A stretch of DNA of 64,000 bases from an uncultured Muribaculaceae bacterium (GTDB lineage: Bacteria; Bacillota_I; Bacilli_A; RF39; UBA660), in NCBI GenBank assembly GCA_964384115.1, contig CAYLJU010000001.1, positions 6,469 to 70,468 of the forward strand, given 5' to 3'. Below, piece by piece: positions 16,122 through 47,654 of the stretch. The translations under genes and the position numbers were made by a program. The notes under the pieces were generated by a model. It ran no database searches and had not been told where the DNA came from. It saw only the letters and a program-made list of their open reading frames with translations. The first letter of the stretch is position 1. Each line of letters starts with the position of its first letter.

Positions 16122-16883
16122 TTAACCTATTTTTCTAACTACATCAATTTGTTTTTCATAATTTCTATAATATTCTTTAATAAATTCATCTAAAAAACGT
16201 AACCTTAAAACAAGTTTAGCATTCATAGCAATTAAAGGATCAACAGTTTTACCACTAGGTAACATTTGTCTAACATCAATTAAATTATATTGATTAAAAG
16301 AACCATCTCTATTAAAGTTAAATCTTTTAACAAGTGATAAAGGAGCTTCACCCCTTACTGCCCTAGCTGCATTAATTTTAGCTTCATTTTCTAAAGCCCT
16401 TTCAATAGACATAGATGCAGGATTCAATAAAACAGTACAAGAACTATGACTATTAGCATTTACATTCGCTCTAGTAGAACCTTGAAGCGCGAAGGTACGT
16501 TTTGGTTCCAATCTCCCAACATAACTAACCTCAGAACCCCTTTCACTAGAAACATAAACATTACCCATTTTACCTCTACCTGGAGTTAAACCTTCCAAGT
16601 AAACATCATCAAGTCTTTTTTTATCAATCACTTTACCAGAACTAACCGCTCTAGTTAGTTTTATTAAATCATCAGATGAAGTAAAAATACCCGCATGTCC
16701 ACTATATCCACCAAGTGCATTCGCACCTGAATCATTGACAGAAGCAAGATTAATATTAGATGTACCTGTAATTAAGTTTCTTTTTTCAATAGGAACAATT
16801 AAATGTGTATTACTTAAACCAAACTTAGAAACAATATATTTATCAATTAATTCTCTGTAAGATAGGACAAAGTTTTCTTTCAA
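16122..16883 (-). pseudogene. C-terminal portion of a beta-lactamase-fold serine hydrolase, separated from its N-terminal portion by the prophage
   Basis: GYSGHAG (HxG box) region; begins at TTG directly after in-frame stops; the matching SxxK/YxN half lies at 47007-47654 on the same strand. Confidence 0.5.
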
Positions 16884-16955
16884 ACCCTATAAACCCAGTG
16901 TTTATGGGGTTTTTGCATTTTTAAGGATACAGAAAAACACCATTAGATTTGGTTC

Positions 16956-16988
16956 GTAGCACACAAGTAGCCCACAGGTAGCCCACAC
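16956..16988. repeat. attL: three tandem 11-bp units GTAGCACACAA/GTAGCCCACAG/GTAGCCCACAC
   Basis: 22 bp AGTAGCCCACAGGTAGCCCACA (16966-16987) matches attR 46945-46966 at 21/22. Confidence 0.6.
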
Positions 16989-17030
16989 AAAAATGCAATA
17001 ATAAAAGAGGAATTAATCCTCTTATTTTTT

Positions 17031-18077
17031 TTACCTTAATTTATTAACTGCCACAAGTAAATCTTCAATATCTTTATGTGTATATACTTTATCAGTTATA
17101 TCTTTACTTGCATGACCAAGTATTCTTTTAGTACATAATTTATTTGCATCAGTTCTATCCATACGAGTAGAAAAAGTATGTCGTGTATCATGTGGTTTAT
17201 GTTCTTTATTAAATCCAAGTTGTTCAATTACTTTTTCCCATTTTTCGTGATAGAAATTCCAATATAACATTTGTTTATATTCGTGATTAAATATTAAATA
17301 TTCACTGCCAACTTCTTTTGCCCTGTCATACCATCTTTTTATTAAAGGAACAATCCTTTCATGGAATGGTATAACTCTATTTTTACCTGCATCAGTTTTT
17401 GAACCACCTCGCATGTATTTTTCTTCCATGTTGACATTTTCAATTTTAATATCCAATAATTCGCCAATTCGCATACCTGTATATATTAATATCAATATAC
17501 AGTCAATAAAATCCATTCTATCGACATTTTCCCATAGGATGTCTATTTCTTCCTCCTCAAAAGGAATTCGTTCTAATTTGGTCGTTTTTTTGCCTATATC
17601 GATATATTCTGAATATTTTCTTACATTCATATCATTTTTAATCGCAAAATCATACATTTGATGCCATAATATTTTAAATGCTTTCTTTGCTGACCATTTT
17701 TCACCCATACCATCAACAATTTGTTGTAAATGAGGTAGTTTAACATCGACAAAAGGCATATCCTTAATATCTTGACAGTAATTCCAACACATATTATATA
17801 CCTGTTGAGTTTTATGGGCAATTTTAGGATATTTTTCATCTTGCCATTTAGAATGTAATTTTTCTACTGTAATTGACCTAGCATCTATATCATAAGGTTT
17901 CTCATTATATAGTGCTAATTCTTGCAGTGCTTTTGTTCTAGTTTCAAAGTATCCAATAGTTTTTCTTATCTGTGTTCCATCTTCTTTCCAACCAACAGTT
18001 TTTCGTACTCTGTATGGTTTTCTTCTGTTGCCTGATAATTTTTCTATTGAACCATAATTATTAGGTAGTTTTATAAG
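17031..18077 (-). CDS. int: tyrosine-type phage integrase (N-terminal arm-binding region lacks canonical start; possible 1-nt frameshift)
   Basis: Catalytic HDTRHTF...RILGH...Y; frame stays open upstream of Met 17792 to 18077 encoding GSIEKLSGNRRKPYRVRKTVGWKEDGTQIRKTIGYFETRTKA (typical N-term) with no ATG/GTG/TTG; an ATG with SD lies +1 frame at 18081. Confidence 0.8.
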   Translation of the reverse strand, partial: LIKLPNNYGSIEKLSGNRRKPYRVRKTVGWKEDGTQIRKTIGYFETRTKALQELALYNEKPYDIDARSITVEKLHSKWQDEKYPKIAHKTQQVYNMCWNYCQDIKDMPFVDVKLPHLQQIVDGMGEKWSAKKAFKILWHQMYDFAIKNDMNVRKYSEYIDIGKKTTKLERIPFEEEEIDILWENVDRMDFIDCILILIYTGMRIGELLDIKIENVNMEEKYMRGGSKTDAGKNRVIPFHERIVPLIKRWYDRAKEVGSEYLIFNHEYKQMLYWNFYHEKWEKVIEQLGFNKEHKPHDTRHTFSTRMDRTDANKLCTKRILGHASKDITDKVYTHKDIEDLLVAVNKLR

Positions 18078-18197
18078 TCATCACCACCTATAATAAAATA
18101 ATATTTCATATATCAAAATCCTCCCATTTTATTGTATTTTTTAGCAATATTTGATATAATGAAATAGAAAAATCCAAAACATTATATCTTATATTTT

Positions 18198-18220
18198 GTT
18201 TTTAGTTTTGACCGACTAAA
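18198..18220. repeat. left copy of perfect 23-bp inverted repeat GTTTTTAGTTTTGACCGACTAAA
   Basis: Exact reverse complement occurs at 19404-19426; the pair brackets the cI/cro switch. Confidence 0.7.
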
Positions 18221-18277
18221 TGAGGTTTTTCAAATTGACTTACTGTTCCAGCAGTAGGTCTTTTTTTTCTTGCTAAA

Positions 18278-45818: not shown

Positions 45819-46013
45819 TTGTTTTTTTATAAAAATTTCTTTGAAAAGGAGGAAAAGATTATGGAAGAAAAAGAAATTTTAACAGAAGAATTACAAGAGA
45901 TGGAAGTGCAAAACACATTCAACACTGATAGTTTAGATGTTTTAGTAGAGGGTGAAGATTGCACAGTAGAAAATCAAGAGGAGGTTGAAGAAGATGCAAA
46001 TGAGAACGAGTAA
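45819..46013 (+). CDS. small acidic hypothetical protein
   Basis: ORF with RBS AAGGAGG. Confidence 0.25.
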   Translation: MFFYKNFFEKEEKIMEEKEILTEELQEMEVQNTFNTDSLDVLVEGEDCTVENQEEVEEDANENE

Positions 46014-46842
46014 ACCATCAGCAGGTAATAAGTTTTATATTACAAAAAGCAAAGGTGGATATTCAACTTGTATTCAAGGAAAACCAACTGATGCAAATTG
46101 TAATGTATTAGCAAACTGTGTTGGATATGCTTGTGGTAGATTTAATGAAATTATTGGAAGCATGAAATATCCATCATTAAATTGCAATGCAGAAAATTTT
46201 ATTGAAAGAGCCAAAAGTTTAGGTTTAACAGTTGTATCATATCCAACATTAGGCGGTATTATGGTATGGCAAAAAGGTTCAACATTATCAGGTAATGATG
46301 GTGCAGGACATGTTGCAGTTGTTGAAAGAATAGACAGTGCAAGTAAAATCTATACATCAGAAAGTGGATATGGTTCAAGTGCATTTTGGAATTCAGTAAG
46401 AAGCAATTCAAATGGTCGTTGGGGATTAGGTTCAGGATATACTTTTAGAGGTTGTATCGTAAACCCAGCAATTGGTGATGTTCATTATGTAGCACCAACA
46501 CCATCAACACCAACTAAATCAAATGAAGAAGTTGCAAATGAAGTTATTCAAGGTAAATGGGGTAATAATCCTGAAAGAAAGCAAAGATTAACAGAAGCAG
46601 GATATGATTATAGTGCTATTCAAGCAATTGTTAATCAAAAAATGGCAGGAAATAAACCATCTGAACCAACAAAATCAAATGATGATATTCTTTTATTAGT
46701 TAAAAAGACTATTAGAGGTGATTTTGGCAATGGTGCTGATAGAAAAAATGCATTAGGTGACAAATATAATGAAGTTCAACATCAAGTTGATTTAAATTAT
46801 AAAAATGGCACTACACAATGGGATAATATAAAATTATATTAA
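45985..46842 (+). CDS. endolysin: CHAP amidase/peptidase domain + two Cpl-7-type (CW_7) cell-wall-binding repeats
   Basis: Cys ...NCVGYACG..., His ...GAGHVAVVE...; repeats EVIQGKWGNNPERKQRLTEAGYDYSAIQAIVNQ and IRGDFGNGADRKNALGDKYNEVQHQVD. Confidence 0.75.
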   Translation: MKKMQMRTSKPSAGNKFYITKSKGGYSTCIQGKPTDANCNVLANCVGYACGRFNEIIGSMKYPSLNCNAENFIERAKSLGLTVVSYPTLGGIMVWQKGSTLSGNDGAGHVAVVERIDSASKIYTSESGYGSSAFWNSVRSNSNGRWGLGSGYTFRGCIVNPAIGDVHYVAPTPSTPTKSNEEVANEVIQGKWGNNPERKQRLTEAGYDYSAIQAIVNQKMAGNKPSEPTKSNDDILLLVKKTIRGDFGNGADRKNALGDKYNEVQHQVDLNYKNGTTQWDNIKLY

Positions 46843-46874
46843 TTTATATAGTTTTAATAAGAGTGATATTTGAA

Positions 46875-46904
46875 AGGTAAGGATTTATTCCTTGCCTTTT
46901 TTTT
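46875..46904 (+). terminator. rho-independent terminator after lysis cassette
   Basis: ggtaagga-ttta-ttccttgcc + TTTTTTTT. Confidence 0.6.
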
Positions 46905-46944
46905 CGTGTTATAAAGCATAGTTTATATATAGATAACTCTAATT

Positions 46945-46967
46945 AGTAGCACACAGGTAGCCCACAA
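46945..46967. repeat. attR: two tandem 11-bp units GTAGCACACAG/GTAGCCCACAA
   Basis: AGTAGCACACAGGTAGCCCACA matches attL 16966-16987 at 21/22. Confidence 0.6.
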
Positions 46968-47006
46968 AACCCTTGTAATCCCTTTAAATTCCAATGACCA
47001 CAATTC

Positions 47007-47654
47007 TCAAAACGATAAACCAGTAACCCTTTCCATTACCTCTTTCATTATCATCATACCAATATCATTGTAATTATATTTACCACTCTCAACAACATTA
47101 ACACTAAATAAAGTATTATAAGCATCATTTAAATTATTTTTTTCATTAATTCTACCATTAGTCATAAATCTTACACCAAAACTAGTTATATCTCCAACAG
47201 TTAAATCTTTTAAATTAATAAAGCGATCATCTAAATCATATATTTTTGAATTAAATTTAAAGAATTTCTCCTTAACCAAATTATAAATTATTATTTGTGT
47301 ATAAAATTTAGAAATAGAAGCAATATCAAATAAAGCATTTTCATTCATAGCAGGTCCATTTTCATATAAATTACCACCAAGTAACTTAACATTTATGTTG
47401 CCAACATTAATTCCAATAGTATAACCAGGAAAATAATATTTTTCTCTAATATCATTTACAAATTTAACATTATCATTTATGACAAATTCAACAAGTTCTT
47501 CTGGAGTACAATCTTTATTATTTTTAATAAGATCAAGCATCAAGCAACAAGATTCCCTAATTTCATCTCGACTAGCATAAATGCCTTCTTTTCTCACACT
47601 TTCAATAAATTTATCAAATATTTTATCAATACGCATATAAATCACCAAACTCAT
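47007..47654 (-). pseudogene. N-terminal portion of the same beta-lactamase-fold serine hydrolase (SxxK and YxN boxes)
   Basis: FDIASISKFYT (SxxK), YNYNDIG (YxN-like); ends at TGA 39 nt from attR. Confidence 0.5.

What the first reader, a model, noticed from the sequence alone, without database searches (positions are those of the whole stretch)
16122..47654. Prophage lies between two halves of a beta-lactamase-fold serine hydrolase gene
The minus-strand ORF 47007-47654 carries SxxK (SISK) and a YxN-like box. The minus-strand ORF 16122-16883 carries the downstream HxG box (GYSGHAG). Spacing of S to Y to H (~82 and ~170 residues) fits a single class-A-like fold of ~470 aa. A simple joint at the att core does not recreate an open frame, because there is a TGA 39 nt from attR and TAA/TAG just 5' of the C-fragment TTG. 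So either the host gene was further remodelled after insertion, or the two parts now act as separate ORFs.
Basis: partly seen in the sequence, partly recalled or inferred. Interest (0 to 1): 0.55.

Follow-up and report, generated by a model that had tools for sequence, protein, structure and literature searches.

The report
Phage inserted off-target, splitting hydrolase gene
A complete 30-kb temperate phage that normally integrates at the end of the ribosomal protein S9 gene has instead landed at a look-alike site inside a serine hydrolase gene, cutting it cleanly in two; the event is real and reversible on paper, but it is an ordinary kind of event.

Summary
ORFs 47007-47654(-) and 16122-16883(-) are consecutive, non-overlapping halves of one PF00144 serine hydrolase gene, separated by a complete 30,153-bp prophage (16861-47013).

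The shared 15-mer TGTGGGCTACCTGTG is an arm-type integrase-binding repeat inside the phage. The true crossover is a 4-bp TATC (47017-47014 and 16864-16861). Joining there gives an open 459-aa ORF, 98% identical to an intact homologue (P0001). Uninterrupted metagenome contigs (L001/L002) align to both flanks with exactly this 4-bp overlap.

New finding: the phage core CTATCGTTTTGAGAATTGTGG is the reverse complement of the last six codons plus stop of rpsI (PQFSKR*). Seven relatives sit at rpsI. The identical phage occurs elsewhere in attP form (L085/L086) and at rpsI (L087). The hydrolase site matches the core at only 12 of 21 positions (TATC + GAGAATT). This is therefore a secondary-site insertion, seen at 100% identity in one or two other samples.

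It is a known kind of event. Interest is modest.

The parts
47014..47654 (-). Host-derived 5' half of the serine hydrolase gene (residues 1-214 and part of codon 215). It carries SxxK (S113-K116) and YxN (Y193-N196). The annotated ORF runs on to 47007 through phage DNA (F215, then TGA). The likely true start is Met7 (ATG at 47636), as in the homologues.
47014..47017 (-). Crossover tetranucleotide TATC at the lysin-side junction (host GGTT-TATC, then phage GTTTTGAGAATTGTGG).
46998..47018 (-). Phage core as it appears at this junction: TTATCGTTTTGAGAATTGTGG. This is 20 of 21 positions of the attP core CTATCGTTTTGAGAATTGTGG. Its + strand reads CCA CAA TTC TCA AAA CGA TAA, i.e. PQFSKR*, a mimic of the 3' end of rpsI (ribosomal protein S9). 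It supplies the TGA that ends the N-fragment.
46946..46966 (-). Two arm-type direct repeats (TGTGGGCTAC, TGTGTGCTAC; 11-nt period) in the lysin-side arm of attP.
16861..47013 (.). Complete siphovirus-type prophage, 30,153 bp (one TATC counted). It matches a 30,080-bp contig that carries the same phage in attP form.
45985..46842 (+). Endolysin (CHAP domain plus CW_7 repeats), the last gene before the lysin-side junction.
28757..30499 (+). Terminase large subunit. It stands for the packaging, head and tail module at 28231-41533.
18278..18967 (-). CI/LexA-type repressor (HTH plus Peptidase_S24).
17031..18074 (-). Tyrosine integrase (PF00589). It is 95% identical to an rpsI-integrated relative (L058). 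The probable start is ATA at 18074, behind the SD AGGTGGTGA. The first canonical in-frame start codon is only at 17792.
16956..16987 (-). Three arm-type direct repeats (TGTGGGCTAC, TGTGGGCTAC, TGTGTGCTAC; 11-nt period) in the integrase-side arm of attP.
16861..16864 (-). Crossover tetranucleotide TATC at the integrase-side junction (phage ...AAAACTTTGTCC-TATC, then host TTACAGAGAATTAATTG).
16122..16860 (-). Host-derived 3' half of the serine hydrolase gene (rest of codon 215 to residue 459, plus stop). It carries HxG (H269-A-G271). The annotated ORF start (TTG at 16883) and its first 7 codons are phage DNA.

Best explanation
A functional temperate siphovirus with a lambda-type (arm-binding) tyrosine integrase has integrated at a secondary attachment site inside a cytoplasmic PF00144 (AmpC/DD-peptidase-like) serine hydrolase gene of an uncultured low-GC gut Bacilli-type bacterium.

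The phage's evolutionary target is the 3' end of rpsI. Its attP core, CTATCGTTTTGAGAATTGTGG, is the reverse complement of the last six S9 codons plus stop. Normal integration therefore leaves rpsI intact.

In this lineage, strand exchange took place at TATC within a pseudo-site, TTATCTTACAGAGAATTAATT, at codons 214-220 of the hydrolase gene. That pseudo-site shares only the blocks TATC and GAGAATT with the core (12 of 21 positions).

Consequences:
- The gene is cut into a 215-codon N-fragment, which ends at a phage-borne TGA after one foreign residue (F215).
- The remaining C-fragment has no promoter and has only a phage-borne TTG with no convincing ribosome-binding site.
- The catalytic triad of motifs is split (SxxK and YxN on one piece, HxG on the other), so the enzyme is almost certainly inactive in the lysogen (inferred).
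- Nothing else has changed. Site-specific excision at TATC would restore the intact 459-aa ORF.

Shown: the anatomy, the crossover point, the attP sequence, the primary rpsI site and the open reconstructed ORF. Inferred: that integrase catalysed the event at low frequency, that the enzyme is inactive, and that excision from this site still occurs.
For: 1. The two fragments cover PF00144 positions 7-164 and 163-246.
2. P0001 is an intact 459-aa homologue at 98% identity.
3. Empty-site contigs: L001 1-1201 aligns to window 48218-47014, and L001 1198-2021 aligns to window 16864-16041. L002 behaves likewise. The 4-bp overlap is TATC.
4. The in-silico joint at TATC gives 1,380 nt and 459 codons with no stop. 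It differs from P0001 at 9 residues, none in an invariant column.
5. The same phage (99.9-100% identity) occurs in attP form in L085 and L086. Their sequence...AAAACTTTGTCC-TATC-GTTTTGAGAATTGTGGTCATTGG..., is exactly the two window junctions recombined.
6. The same phage occurs at rpsI in L087 (junction CCTATCGTTT|ACTAAATTGTGGTGCACG...).
7. Seven relatives with integrases 71-95% identical (L058, L062, L067, L070, L071, L073, L079) all abut an ORF ending ...ARRAPQFSKR*. Its full-length copies carry GGGFSGQ, which I recognise as ribosomal protein S9. The core there varies only synonymously.
8. No relative's flank encodes the hydrolase (tblastn, no hit).
9. The prophage gene set is complete.
10. 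Arm-type repeats in a 3+2 arrangement are conserved in all attP forms.
11. TATC-N5-GAGAATT occurs once in the 33.8 kb of host DNA in the window.
Against: - rpsI of this host is not in the window. I cannot show whether the primary site is occupied, divergent or free, so the reason the secondary site was used is unknown.
- Overall identity of the pseudo-site to the core is unremarkable. 220 positions in the host part of the window match at 12 or more of 21, and 17 of these also have TATC in register. Site choice is therefore not explained by sequence alone.
- The split allele appears in at least two other runs (SRR6824180 and SRR6824193). Their run numbers are close and L084 is 100% identical to the window, so this probably reflects one lineage. 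Recurrent use of the site is not excluded.
- The integrase has a non-canonical 5' end. Its activity is inferred only from the phage being found in three states.
Confidence: 0.85

Rival explanations
1. One reading: after insertion the host gene was further remodelled, or the two parts now function as separate ORFs, because excision would not restore an open frame.
For: A joint made at the 15-nt repeat TGTGGGCTACCTGTG does leave TGA and TAG in frame. Each fragment is an ORF with a possible start codon.
Against: That repeat is an arm-type site inside the phage, present within a single contiguous attP in L085 and L086. The joint at the real crossover (TATC) is open and matches P0001 in length and in 450 of 459 residues. 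The in-frame stops and the TTG start are phage DNA. The C-fragment lacks a credible SD (AGGG lies 1 nt from the TTG). The catalytic motifs are divided between the pieces.
Confidence: 0.03
2. The hydrolase site is a bona fide, selected second attB. Under this reading the phage acts as a reversible switch (active lysogeny, phage regulatory switch) that turns the hydrolase off and on, as with phi10403S in Listeria comK or SPbeta in B. subtilis spsM.
For: - Precise excision would restore the ORF.
- The reconstructed gene shows no decay.
- The attP form of the same phage exists in other samples.
- The split allele is seen in more than one run.
- The host appears to be a spore-former, with cotJB and cotJC next to the gene. 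Such intervening elements are known in spore-formers.
Against: - The attP core is a perfect mimic of the rpsI 3' end, not of the hydrolase.
- The same phage and all seven integrated relatives use rpsI.
- None of the 38 related integrase loci is flanked by the hydrolase.
- Only 12 of 21 positions match the core.
- L084, which carries the integrase-side junction, is 100% identical to the window, which points to a single event.
- The phage is a full lytic-competent genome, not a reduced element.
Confidence: 0.07
3. The crossover was at GAGAATT rather than TATC, and the host gene was already a pseudogene carrying TGA (GLSF*ELIDKY) before the phage arrived.
For: GAGAATT is the longest exact identity between the two junctions in register (7 nt). 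A joint there is also in frame, with a single TGA.
Against: The attP form of the same phage carries TATCGTTTTGAGAATTGTGG, so GTTTTGAG is phage sequence. Empty-site alleles L001 and L002 carry TATCTTACAAAGAATT. L087 shows exchange within CTATCGTTT at the primary site.
Confidence: 0.02
4. Assembly chimera: phage and host reads were mis-joined, with no real insertion.
For: The source is evidently a metagenome-type assembly. A circular form of the same phage co-exists in public data.
Against: Both junctions are reproduced in independent Logan assemblies of other runs (L084 and L088; L089 and L090). The junctions have the exact reciprocal structure expected of site-specific recombination.
Confidence: 0.02

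Closest known systems
Secondary (ectopic) attachment-site lysogens of lambdoid phages (classical lambda secondary att sites; from my own knowledge of the literature, not verified here)
   Same: A heterobivalent tyrosine integrase with arm-type sites. There is a well-defined primary attB. A rare insertion occurs at a site sharing partial identity with the core, with the crossover inside the core. The gene is inactivated at the secondary site.
   Different: It is seen here in an uncultured gut Bacilli-type host, from metagenome data only. Whether the primary site was missing or occupied is unknown. Identity at the crossover is only 4 bp, with a second 7-bp block 5 nt away.
Tyrosine integrases of streptococcal ICEs and IMEs that target the 3' end of rpsI (Ambroset et al. 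2016, PMC4701971)
   Same: The primary target is the 3' end of the S9 ribosomal protein gene. The paper argues that such specificities have evolved to minimise the impact of insertion on the host. Here the element carries the last codons of the gene, so the coding sequence is preserved.
   Different: This element is a phage, not a conjugative or mobilizable element. Homology between this integrase and the streptococcal rpsI integrases was not tested.
Phage regulatory switches / active lysogeny and sporulation intervening elements (phi10403S-comK, SPbeta-spsM, skin-sigK; from my own knowledge)
   Same: A prophage sits inside an ORF, and precise excision would restore an intact gene. The host carries spore-coat genes.
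   Different: In those systems the intragenic site is the element's dedicated attB and is conserved across relatives. Here the dedicated site is rpsI and the intragenic site is an outlier. No evidence of regulated excision is available.
PF00144 beta-lactamase / transpeptidase-like serine hydrolases (AmpC, AmpH, PBP4*, FmtA, family VIII esterases)
   Same: It has the SxxK, YxN and HxG motifs in the canonical order and spacing. There are weak but significant matches to class C beta-lactamases and to FmtA and other beta-lactamase-family structures.
   Different: It scores far below every curated equivalog cut-off (35 bits against 415 for class C). It has an N-terminal extension of about 65 aa and a conserved C-terminal extension of about 170 aa. 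I see no obvious signal peptide on reading the N-terminus. The substrate is unknown. The family is confined to uncultured gut Bacilli, Erysipelotrichaceae and 'Tenericutes' MAGs.

Membership tests
PF00144 beta-lactamase/transpeptidase-like serine hydrolase | Significant match to the Pfam profile over the whole domain | tested here: met
   The N-fragment scores 30.9 bits (cut-off 27) on profile positions 7-164. The C-fragment scores 23.1 bits on positions 163-246. The intact homologue P0001 and all 120 listed homologues carry a precomputed PF00144 hit.
PF00144 beta-lactamase/transpeptidase-like serine hydrolase | Catalytic motifs SxxK, Y-x-N and K/H-x-G in that order | tested here: met
   S113-ISK116, Y193-NYN196 and H269-AG271 in the rejoined protein. 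S113, K116, Y193, Y195, H269, A270 and G271 are invariant in 17 homologues.
   The second motif is YxN, not SDN. The only NCBIfam and PDB matches are to class C, AmpH, PBP4B, FmtA and DD-carboxypeptidase-type proteins.
Class C beta-lactamase (functional AmpC) | Score at or above the NCBIfam equivalog cut-off | tested here: not met
   NF033085 scores 35.2 bits against a cut-off of 415. The protein has the fold but is not a beta-lactamase equivalog.
Lambda-type heterobivalent tyrosine integrase / attP system | Tyrosine recombinase catalytic domain | tested here: met
   PF00589, E 1.5e-26, 93.7 bits, residues 193-336.
Lambda-type heterobivalent tyrosine integrase / attP system | Arm-type repeats on both sides of the core within attP, distinct from the core | tested here: met
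   There are 3 direct 11-nt-period repeats about 110 nt on the integrase side and 2 repeats about 50 nt on the other side. The arrangement is conserved, with lineage-specific sequence, in L004, L060, L061, L068, L072 and L085. Binding itself was not tested.
Lambda-type heterobivalent tyrosine integrase / attP system | Recombination directionality factor (Xis) | not tested
   Small ORFs next to the repressor include DUF739 and HTH_39 proteins. None was examined.
Secondary attachment-site insertion | The same phage has a different, conserved primary attB whose sequence its attP core reproduces | tested here: met
   The core is the reverse complement of rpsI codons PQFSKR*. The same phage is at rpsI in L087. 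Seven relatives are at rpsI.
Secondary attachment-site insertion | The site used has only partial identity to the core, and the crossover lies within the core | tested here: met
   12 of 21 positions match. The crossover is at TATC, the same block (CTATCGTTT) in which exchange occurred at rpsI in L087.
Secondary attachment-site insertion | The primary site is absent, occupied or incompatible in the lysogen | not testable with these tools
   rpsI is not in the 64-kb window. The rest of the host genome is not available.
Phage regulatory switch / active lysogeny | The intragenic attB is the element's dedicated, conserved target | tested here: not met
   No hydrolase fragment flanks any of the 38 related integrase loci. 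The relatives are at rpsI.
Phage regulatory switch / active lysogeny | Precise excision restores a functional ORF | tested here: met
   In silico only: the joint at TATC gives an open 459-aa ORF.
Phage regulatory switch / active lysogeny | Regulated excision without lysis under defined conditions | not testable with these tools
   This needs culture or read-level time-series data.

The most novel reading that the evidence does not exclude
The insertion might be a captured early step in a change of integration specificity, or a usable on/off switch, rather than a dead-end accident. Under this reading a phage built for rpsI would be maintained stably at a pseudo-site in a hydrolase gene next to the cotJ spore-coat operon, in a spore-forming gut Bacilli lineage. 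A host SNP (K216R, AAA to AGA) created the GAGAATT block. Excision at TATC would then reversibly restore the enzyme.
Probability: 0.08. Interest if true: 0.55.

Novelty: new member of a known kind. Interest (0 to 1): 0.3.

Why it matters
- It removes an apparent anomaly. The gene that seemed remodelled is simply a cleanly interrupted gene, and the frame problem came from mistaking arm-type integrase sites for the att core. That is a useful caution for att-site calling from direct repeats alone.
- It documents one temperate phage of uncultured gut Bacilli in three states, from public metagenomes: the attP form, integrated at its primary site (3' end of rpsI) and integrated at a secondary intragenic site. 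The crossover is mapped to 4 bp. This gives a concrete natural example of off-target integration that inactivates a host gene.
- It defines an rpsI-targeting phage integrase family, with its attP architecture.
- None of this changes how such systems are understood.

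Tried and rejected
1. GAGAATT as the crossover. It gives an in-frame joint with one TGA. I rejected it once the attP forms and the empty sites showed that GTTTTGAG is phage DNA.
2. 'Dead integrase, grounded prophage'. Compared with its relatives, the integrase has a 35-nt insertion just after the ancestral ATG AAA, and no canonical in-frame start until 17792. I rejected this as the main reading because the identical 5' end occurs in the attP form, at rpsI and at the hydrolase site. 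An ATA start behind a strong SD is the likelier explanation.
3. GenBank phage collection, blastn in distant mode with the integrase-repressor region: no match.
4. IMG/VR scan with the intact hydrolase, to find other prophage contigs with hydrolase flanks: no confirmed hit.
5. tblastn of P0001 against all 38 related integrase loci: no hit.
6. Exact look-up of the 215-aa N-fragment: not on record. The 209-aa form that starts at Met7 is on record.
7. Host identification. The genome scan returned only relatives at 65% identity or less, in uncultured Bacilli, Erysipelotrichaceae and 'Tenericutes' MAGs. The taxonomy look-up for 'Scybalousia' returned a homonymous Bacteroidales genus and was uninformative.
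8. The literature search on secondary attachment sites gave nothing specific to this phage group.

Full report
**1. The observation**

The window is low-GC DNA (about 25% G+C). On the minus strand, ORF 47007-47654 (215 aa) and ORF 16122-16883 (253 aa) exist as described.
- Against Pfam, the first matches PF00144 (Beta-lactamase) profile positions 7-164 of 329. The second matches positions 163-246. They are consecutive and non-overlapping pieces of one domain.
- The 30 kb between them carries a tyrosine integrase, an S24/LexA-type repressor, a replisome organizer, small and large terminase, portal, head protease, major head protein, tape measure, Dit, a minor tail protein and a CHAP+CW_7 endolysin. 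This is a complete siphovirus-type prophage.

Three details are off: the Y-to-H spacing is about 75 residues rather than about 170, the protein is 459 aa rather than about 470, and the fold relatives are class C / DD-peptidase-like rather than class A.

**2. An intact homologue and empty sites**

I searched with the two fragments concatenated.
- The search found P0001: 459 aa, 98% identity, 100% coverage. More than a hundred further full-length relatives of 440-470 aa followed.
- P0001 reads ...MERVTGLSYKELVDKYIVSKFGLSNTHL... across the break.
- It is encoded on two short metagenome contigs, L001 and L002.
- L001 1-1201 aligns to window 48218-47014 (98.7%). L001 1198-2021 aligns to window 16864-16041 (97.5%). 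L002 behaves the same way.

The related strain thus has the same neighbours: an RsmF-type methyltransferase on one side and the 120-aa ORF 15721-16083 on the other. It has an uninterrupted gene. The two window alignments overlap by exactly four bases, TATC.

**3. The real crossover and why the frame puzzle disappears**

Read on the minus strand, the three sequences are:

| Element | Sequence |
|---|---|
| Lysin-side junction | ...GTTACTGGTT-TATC-GTTTTGAGAATTGTGGTCATTGG... |
| Integrase-side junction | ...GAAAACTTTGTCC-TATC-TTACAGAGAATTAATTGATAAA... |
| Empty site | ...GTTACTGGTT-TATC-TTACAAAGAATTAGTTGATAAA... |

- Joining the window at TATC (47014 | 16860) gives 1,380 nt and 459 codons with no internal stop. 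It differs from P0001 at 9 residues, none in an invariant column of a 17-member alignment.
- The prophage spans 16861-47013, which is 30,153 bp.
- The TGA that ends the N-fragment (47009-47007), and the TAG (16889-16887) and TTG (16883) at the head of the C-fragment, all lie on the phage side of TATC.
It lies 48 and about 110 nt inside the prophage. It belongs to arrays of two and three direct repeats with an 11-nt period.
- The same 3+2 layout, with lineage-specific repeat sequence (TTGTTGGCTAC, TGTGGTCTAC, TGTGGGTTAC), flanks the core in every related attP. This is the signature of arm-type binding sites of a lambda-type integrase. A joint made there is naturally out of register.

**4. Direct proof of attP**

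An exact look-up of the integrase ORF product found the same phage (99.9-100% DNA identity to the window) in other public assemblies.
- In L085 (on a 30,080-bp contig) and L086, the integrase is followed by ...AAAACTTTGTCC-TATC-GTTTTGAGAATTGTGGTCATTGGAATTTAAAGGG..., and then by the endolysin on the opposite strand. This is exactly the integrase-side phage arm, TATC and the lysin-side phage arm of the window. It is the attP predicted by a crossover at TATC.
- L084 is 100% identical to the window over 6,762 bp. It has the same integrase / C-fragment / CotJB / CotJC / Ddl arrangement.
- L089 and L090 reproduce the N-fragment / endolysin junction.

The insertion is therefore real and is not an assembly artefact.

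**5. The unexpected part: the phage belongs at rpsI**

A metagenome scan with the integrase returned 26 loci.
- In seven of them (L058 at 95% identity, L062, L067, L070, L071, L073, L079), the integrase-side arm is followed by the core and then the reverse complement of an ORF ending ...ARRAPQFSKR*. Its full-length copies carry GGGFSGQ, which I recognise as ribosomal protein S9 (rpsI).
- The core in these loci (CTATCGTTTTGAGAATTGTGG, CTATCTCTTACTAAATTGTGG, CTATCGCTTACTAAATTGTGG and others) is always the reverse complement of CCA CAA TTY (TCN or AGY) AAR (CGA or AGA) TAG. These are synonymous spellings of PQFSKR*.
- The window phage's own core, CTATCGTTTTGAGAATTGTGG, is such a mimic. On the + strand at 46998-47018 the window reads PQFSKR*, yet no rpsI gene is present in the window.
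- L087 carries the identical phage (identity ends exactly at 16861), joined to ...CCTATCGTTT|ACTAAATTGTGGTGCACGTCTAGC..., which is rpsI. Exchange at the primary site therefore also falls within the CTATCGTTT block.
- None of the 38 related integrase loci has a hydrolase fragment in its flanks.

The hydrolase site, TTATCTTACAGAGAATTAATT, matches the core at 12 of 21 positions, in two blocks (TATC and GAGAATT).
- That combination occurs once in the 33.8 kb of host DNA in the window.
- Overall, 220 positions match the core equally well or better.

I conclude that this is a secondary-site (off-target) integration by a phage whose dedicated attB is the 3' end of rpsI. Targeting of the rpsI 3' end by tyrosine integrases is already described for streptococcal ICEs (PMC4701971).

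**6. How it most likely works**

*Shown:*
- the phage has an attP with a 21-bp rpsI-mimicking core between arm-site arrays;
- at rpsI, integration regenerates the last six codons and the stop;
- at the hydrolase pseudo-site the exchange occurred at TATC.

*Inferred:*
- Tyrosine recombinases exchange strands across a 6-8-bp overlap. The overlap here must therefore have included 2-3 mismatched positions (TATCGTT against TATCTTA, or CCTATC against TTTATC).
- Such events are rare and leave heteroduplex DNA that is resolved at replication. The pattern seen fits one daughter strand: phage-type sequence immediately past TATC at one junction and host-type at the other.
- The host allele has AGA (R216) where L001, L002 and more distant homologues have AAA or K. 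This SNP completes the GAGAATT block and may have improved the pseudo-site.

*Consequence:* SxxK and YxN are on a 215-residue stub, and HxG and the conserved C-terminal 190 residues are on a fragment without a promoter or a convincing SD. The enzyme is presumably lost in the lysogen. The reconstructed ORF shows no further damage, so the insertion is recent or reversible.

**7. What the gene is**

It is a PF00144 serine hydrolase with N- and C-terminal extensions and, on reading its N-terminus, no evident signal peptide.
- It scores far below every curated equivalog (class C 35 bits against a cut-off of 415).
- It has only weak matches to solved beta-lactamase-family proteins and FmtA.
- Homologues come from uncultured gut Bacilli, Erysipelotrichaceae and 'Tenericutes' MAGs. 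The best genome hit is CAG:884 at 65%.
- The substrate is unknown.

**8. Verdict**

The finding is real. The biology is a known kind of event: a prophage insertion that inactivates a gene at a secondary attachment site. It is documented unusually completely, because the same phage is seen in its attP form, at its primary site and at this secondary site. I rate the novelty as a new member of a known kind, with modest interest. The regulatory-switch reading is not excluded but is unlikely (about 0.08), because the phage's core is built for rpsI and no relative uses the hydrolase.

Noticed in passing
window 42298-45155 (VR 43019-43107, TR 43811-43899, RT ORF 44016-45155): The prophage carries a diversity-generating retroelement. 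There is an 89-nt repeat pair in which 12 of the 13 mismatches have A in the downstream copy (TR) and another base in the upstream copy (VR). The VR forms the C-terminus of the 271-aa ORF 42298-43113 (...WYWLRN...). A reverse transcriptase gene (PF00078) lies just downstream.
   Followed up: partly
window 18071-18109 and 17031-18074 (minus strand): Compared with relatives (GGAGG-N9-ATG AAA TTA CCT...), the integrase has a 35-nt insertion right after ATGAAAT. The ancestral start now opens a 12-codon uORF (MKYYFIIGGDDL*). Its TAA overlaps an ATA (18074) that is preceded by the SD AGGTGGTGA. From there ATA AAA CTA CCT reads (M)KLPNN, as in the relatives. The same arrangement is present in all five copies of this phage (attP form, rpsI site, hydrolase site), so the integrase is probably expressed from a non-canonical start, perhaps by coupling to the uORF.
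   Followed up: partly
window 27636-27695, 30488-30547, 45123-45182: There are three copies (72-73% identity) of a 60-nt element containing TTCACA-N5-TTCACA and TGATATAAT. They sit upstream of the small-terminase region, the portal gene and the lysis cassette. They may be phage late promoters or activator sites.
   Followed up: no
window 16122-16860 versus 47014-47654, compared with L001: Of the 22 nucleotide differences from the intact allele in L001, 19 fall in the 3' half and only 3 in the 5' half. The flanks show the same asymmetry (97.5% against 98.7% identity). This could reflect strain recombination history or relaxed constraint on the promoter-less half.
   Followed up: no
window 16853 (codon 216 of the rejoined gene): The host allele has AGA (R) where the empty-site alleles and more distant homologues have AAA or K. 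The G completes the 7-nt GAGAATT identity with the phage core and may have helped create the pseudo-attB.
   Followed up: partly
window 14622-15611 (minus strand): CotJB and CotJC (Mn-catalase-like) spore-coat genes and ddl lie immediately downstream of the split gene. The host is therefore probably a spore-former, although its relatives are labelled Bacilli or Tenericutes MAGs.
   Followed up: no
L008, L009, L063-L066 (downstream of the integrase): A subgroup of related integrases (82-85% identity) has no arm repeats or core downstream of int. The integrase is followed directly by a promoter-like region and another gene. Their attP must lie elsewhere or be organised differently.
   Followed up: no
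L060 versus L061 (attP core): Two nearly identical phages differ only in the central core (TATCGTTTTGTAAATTG against TATCTCTTACTAAATTG). This suggests that cores are swapped with host rpsI alleles during cycles of integration and excision.
   Followed up: no
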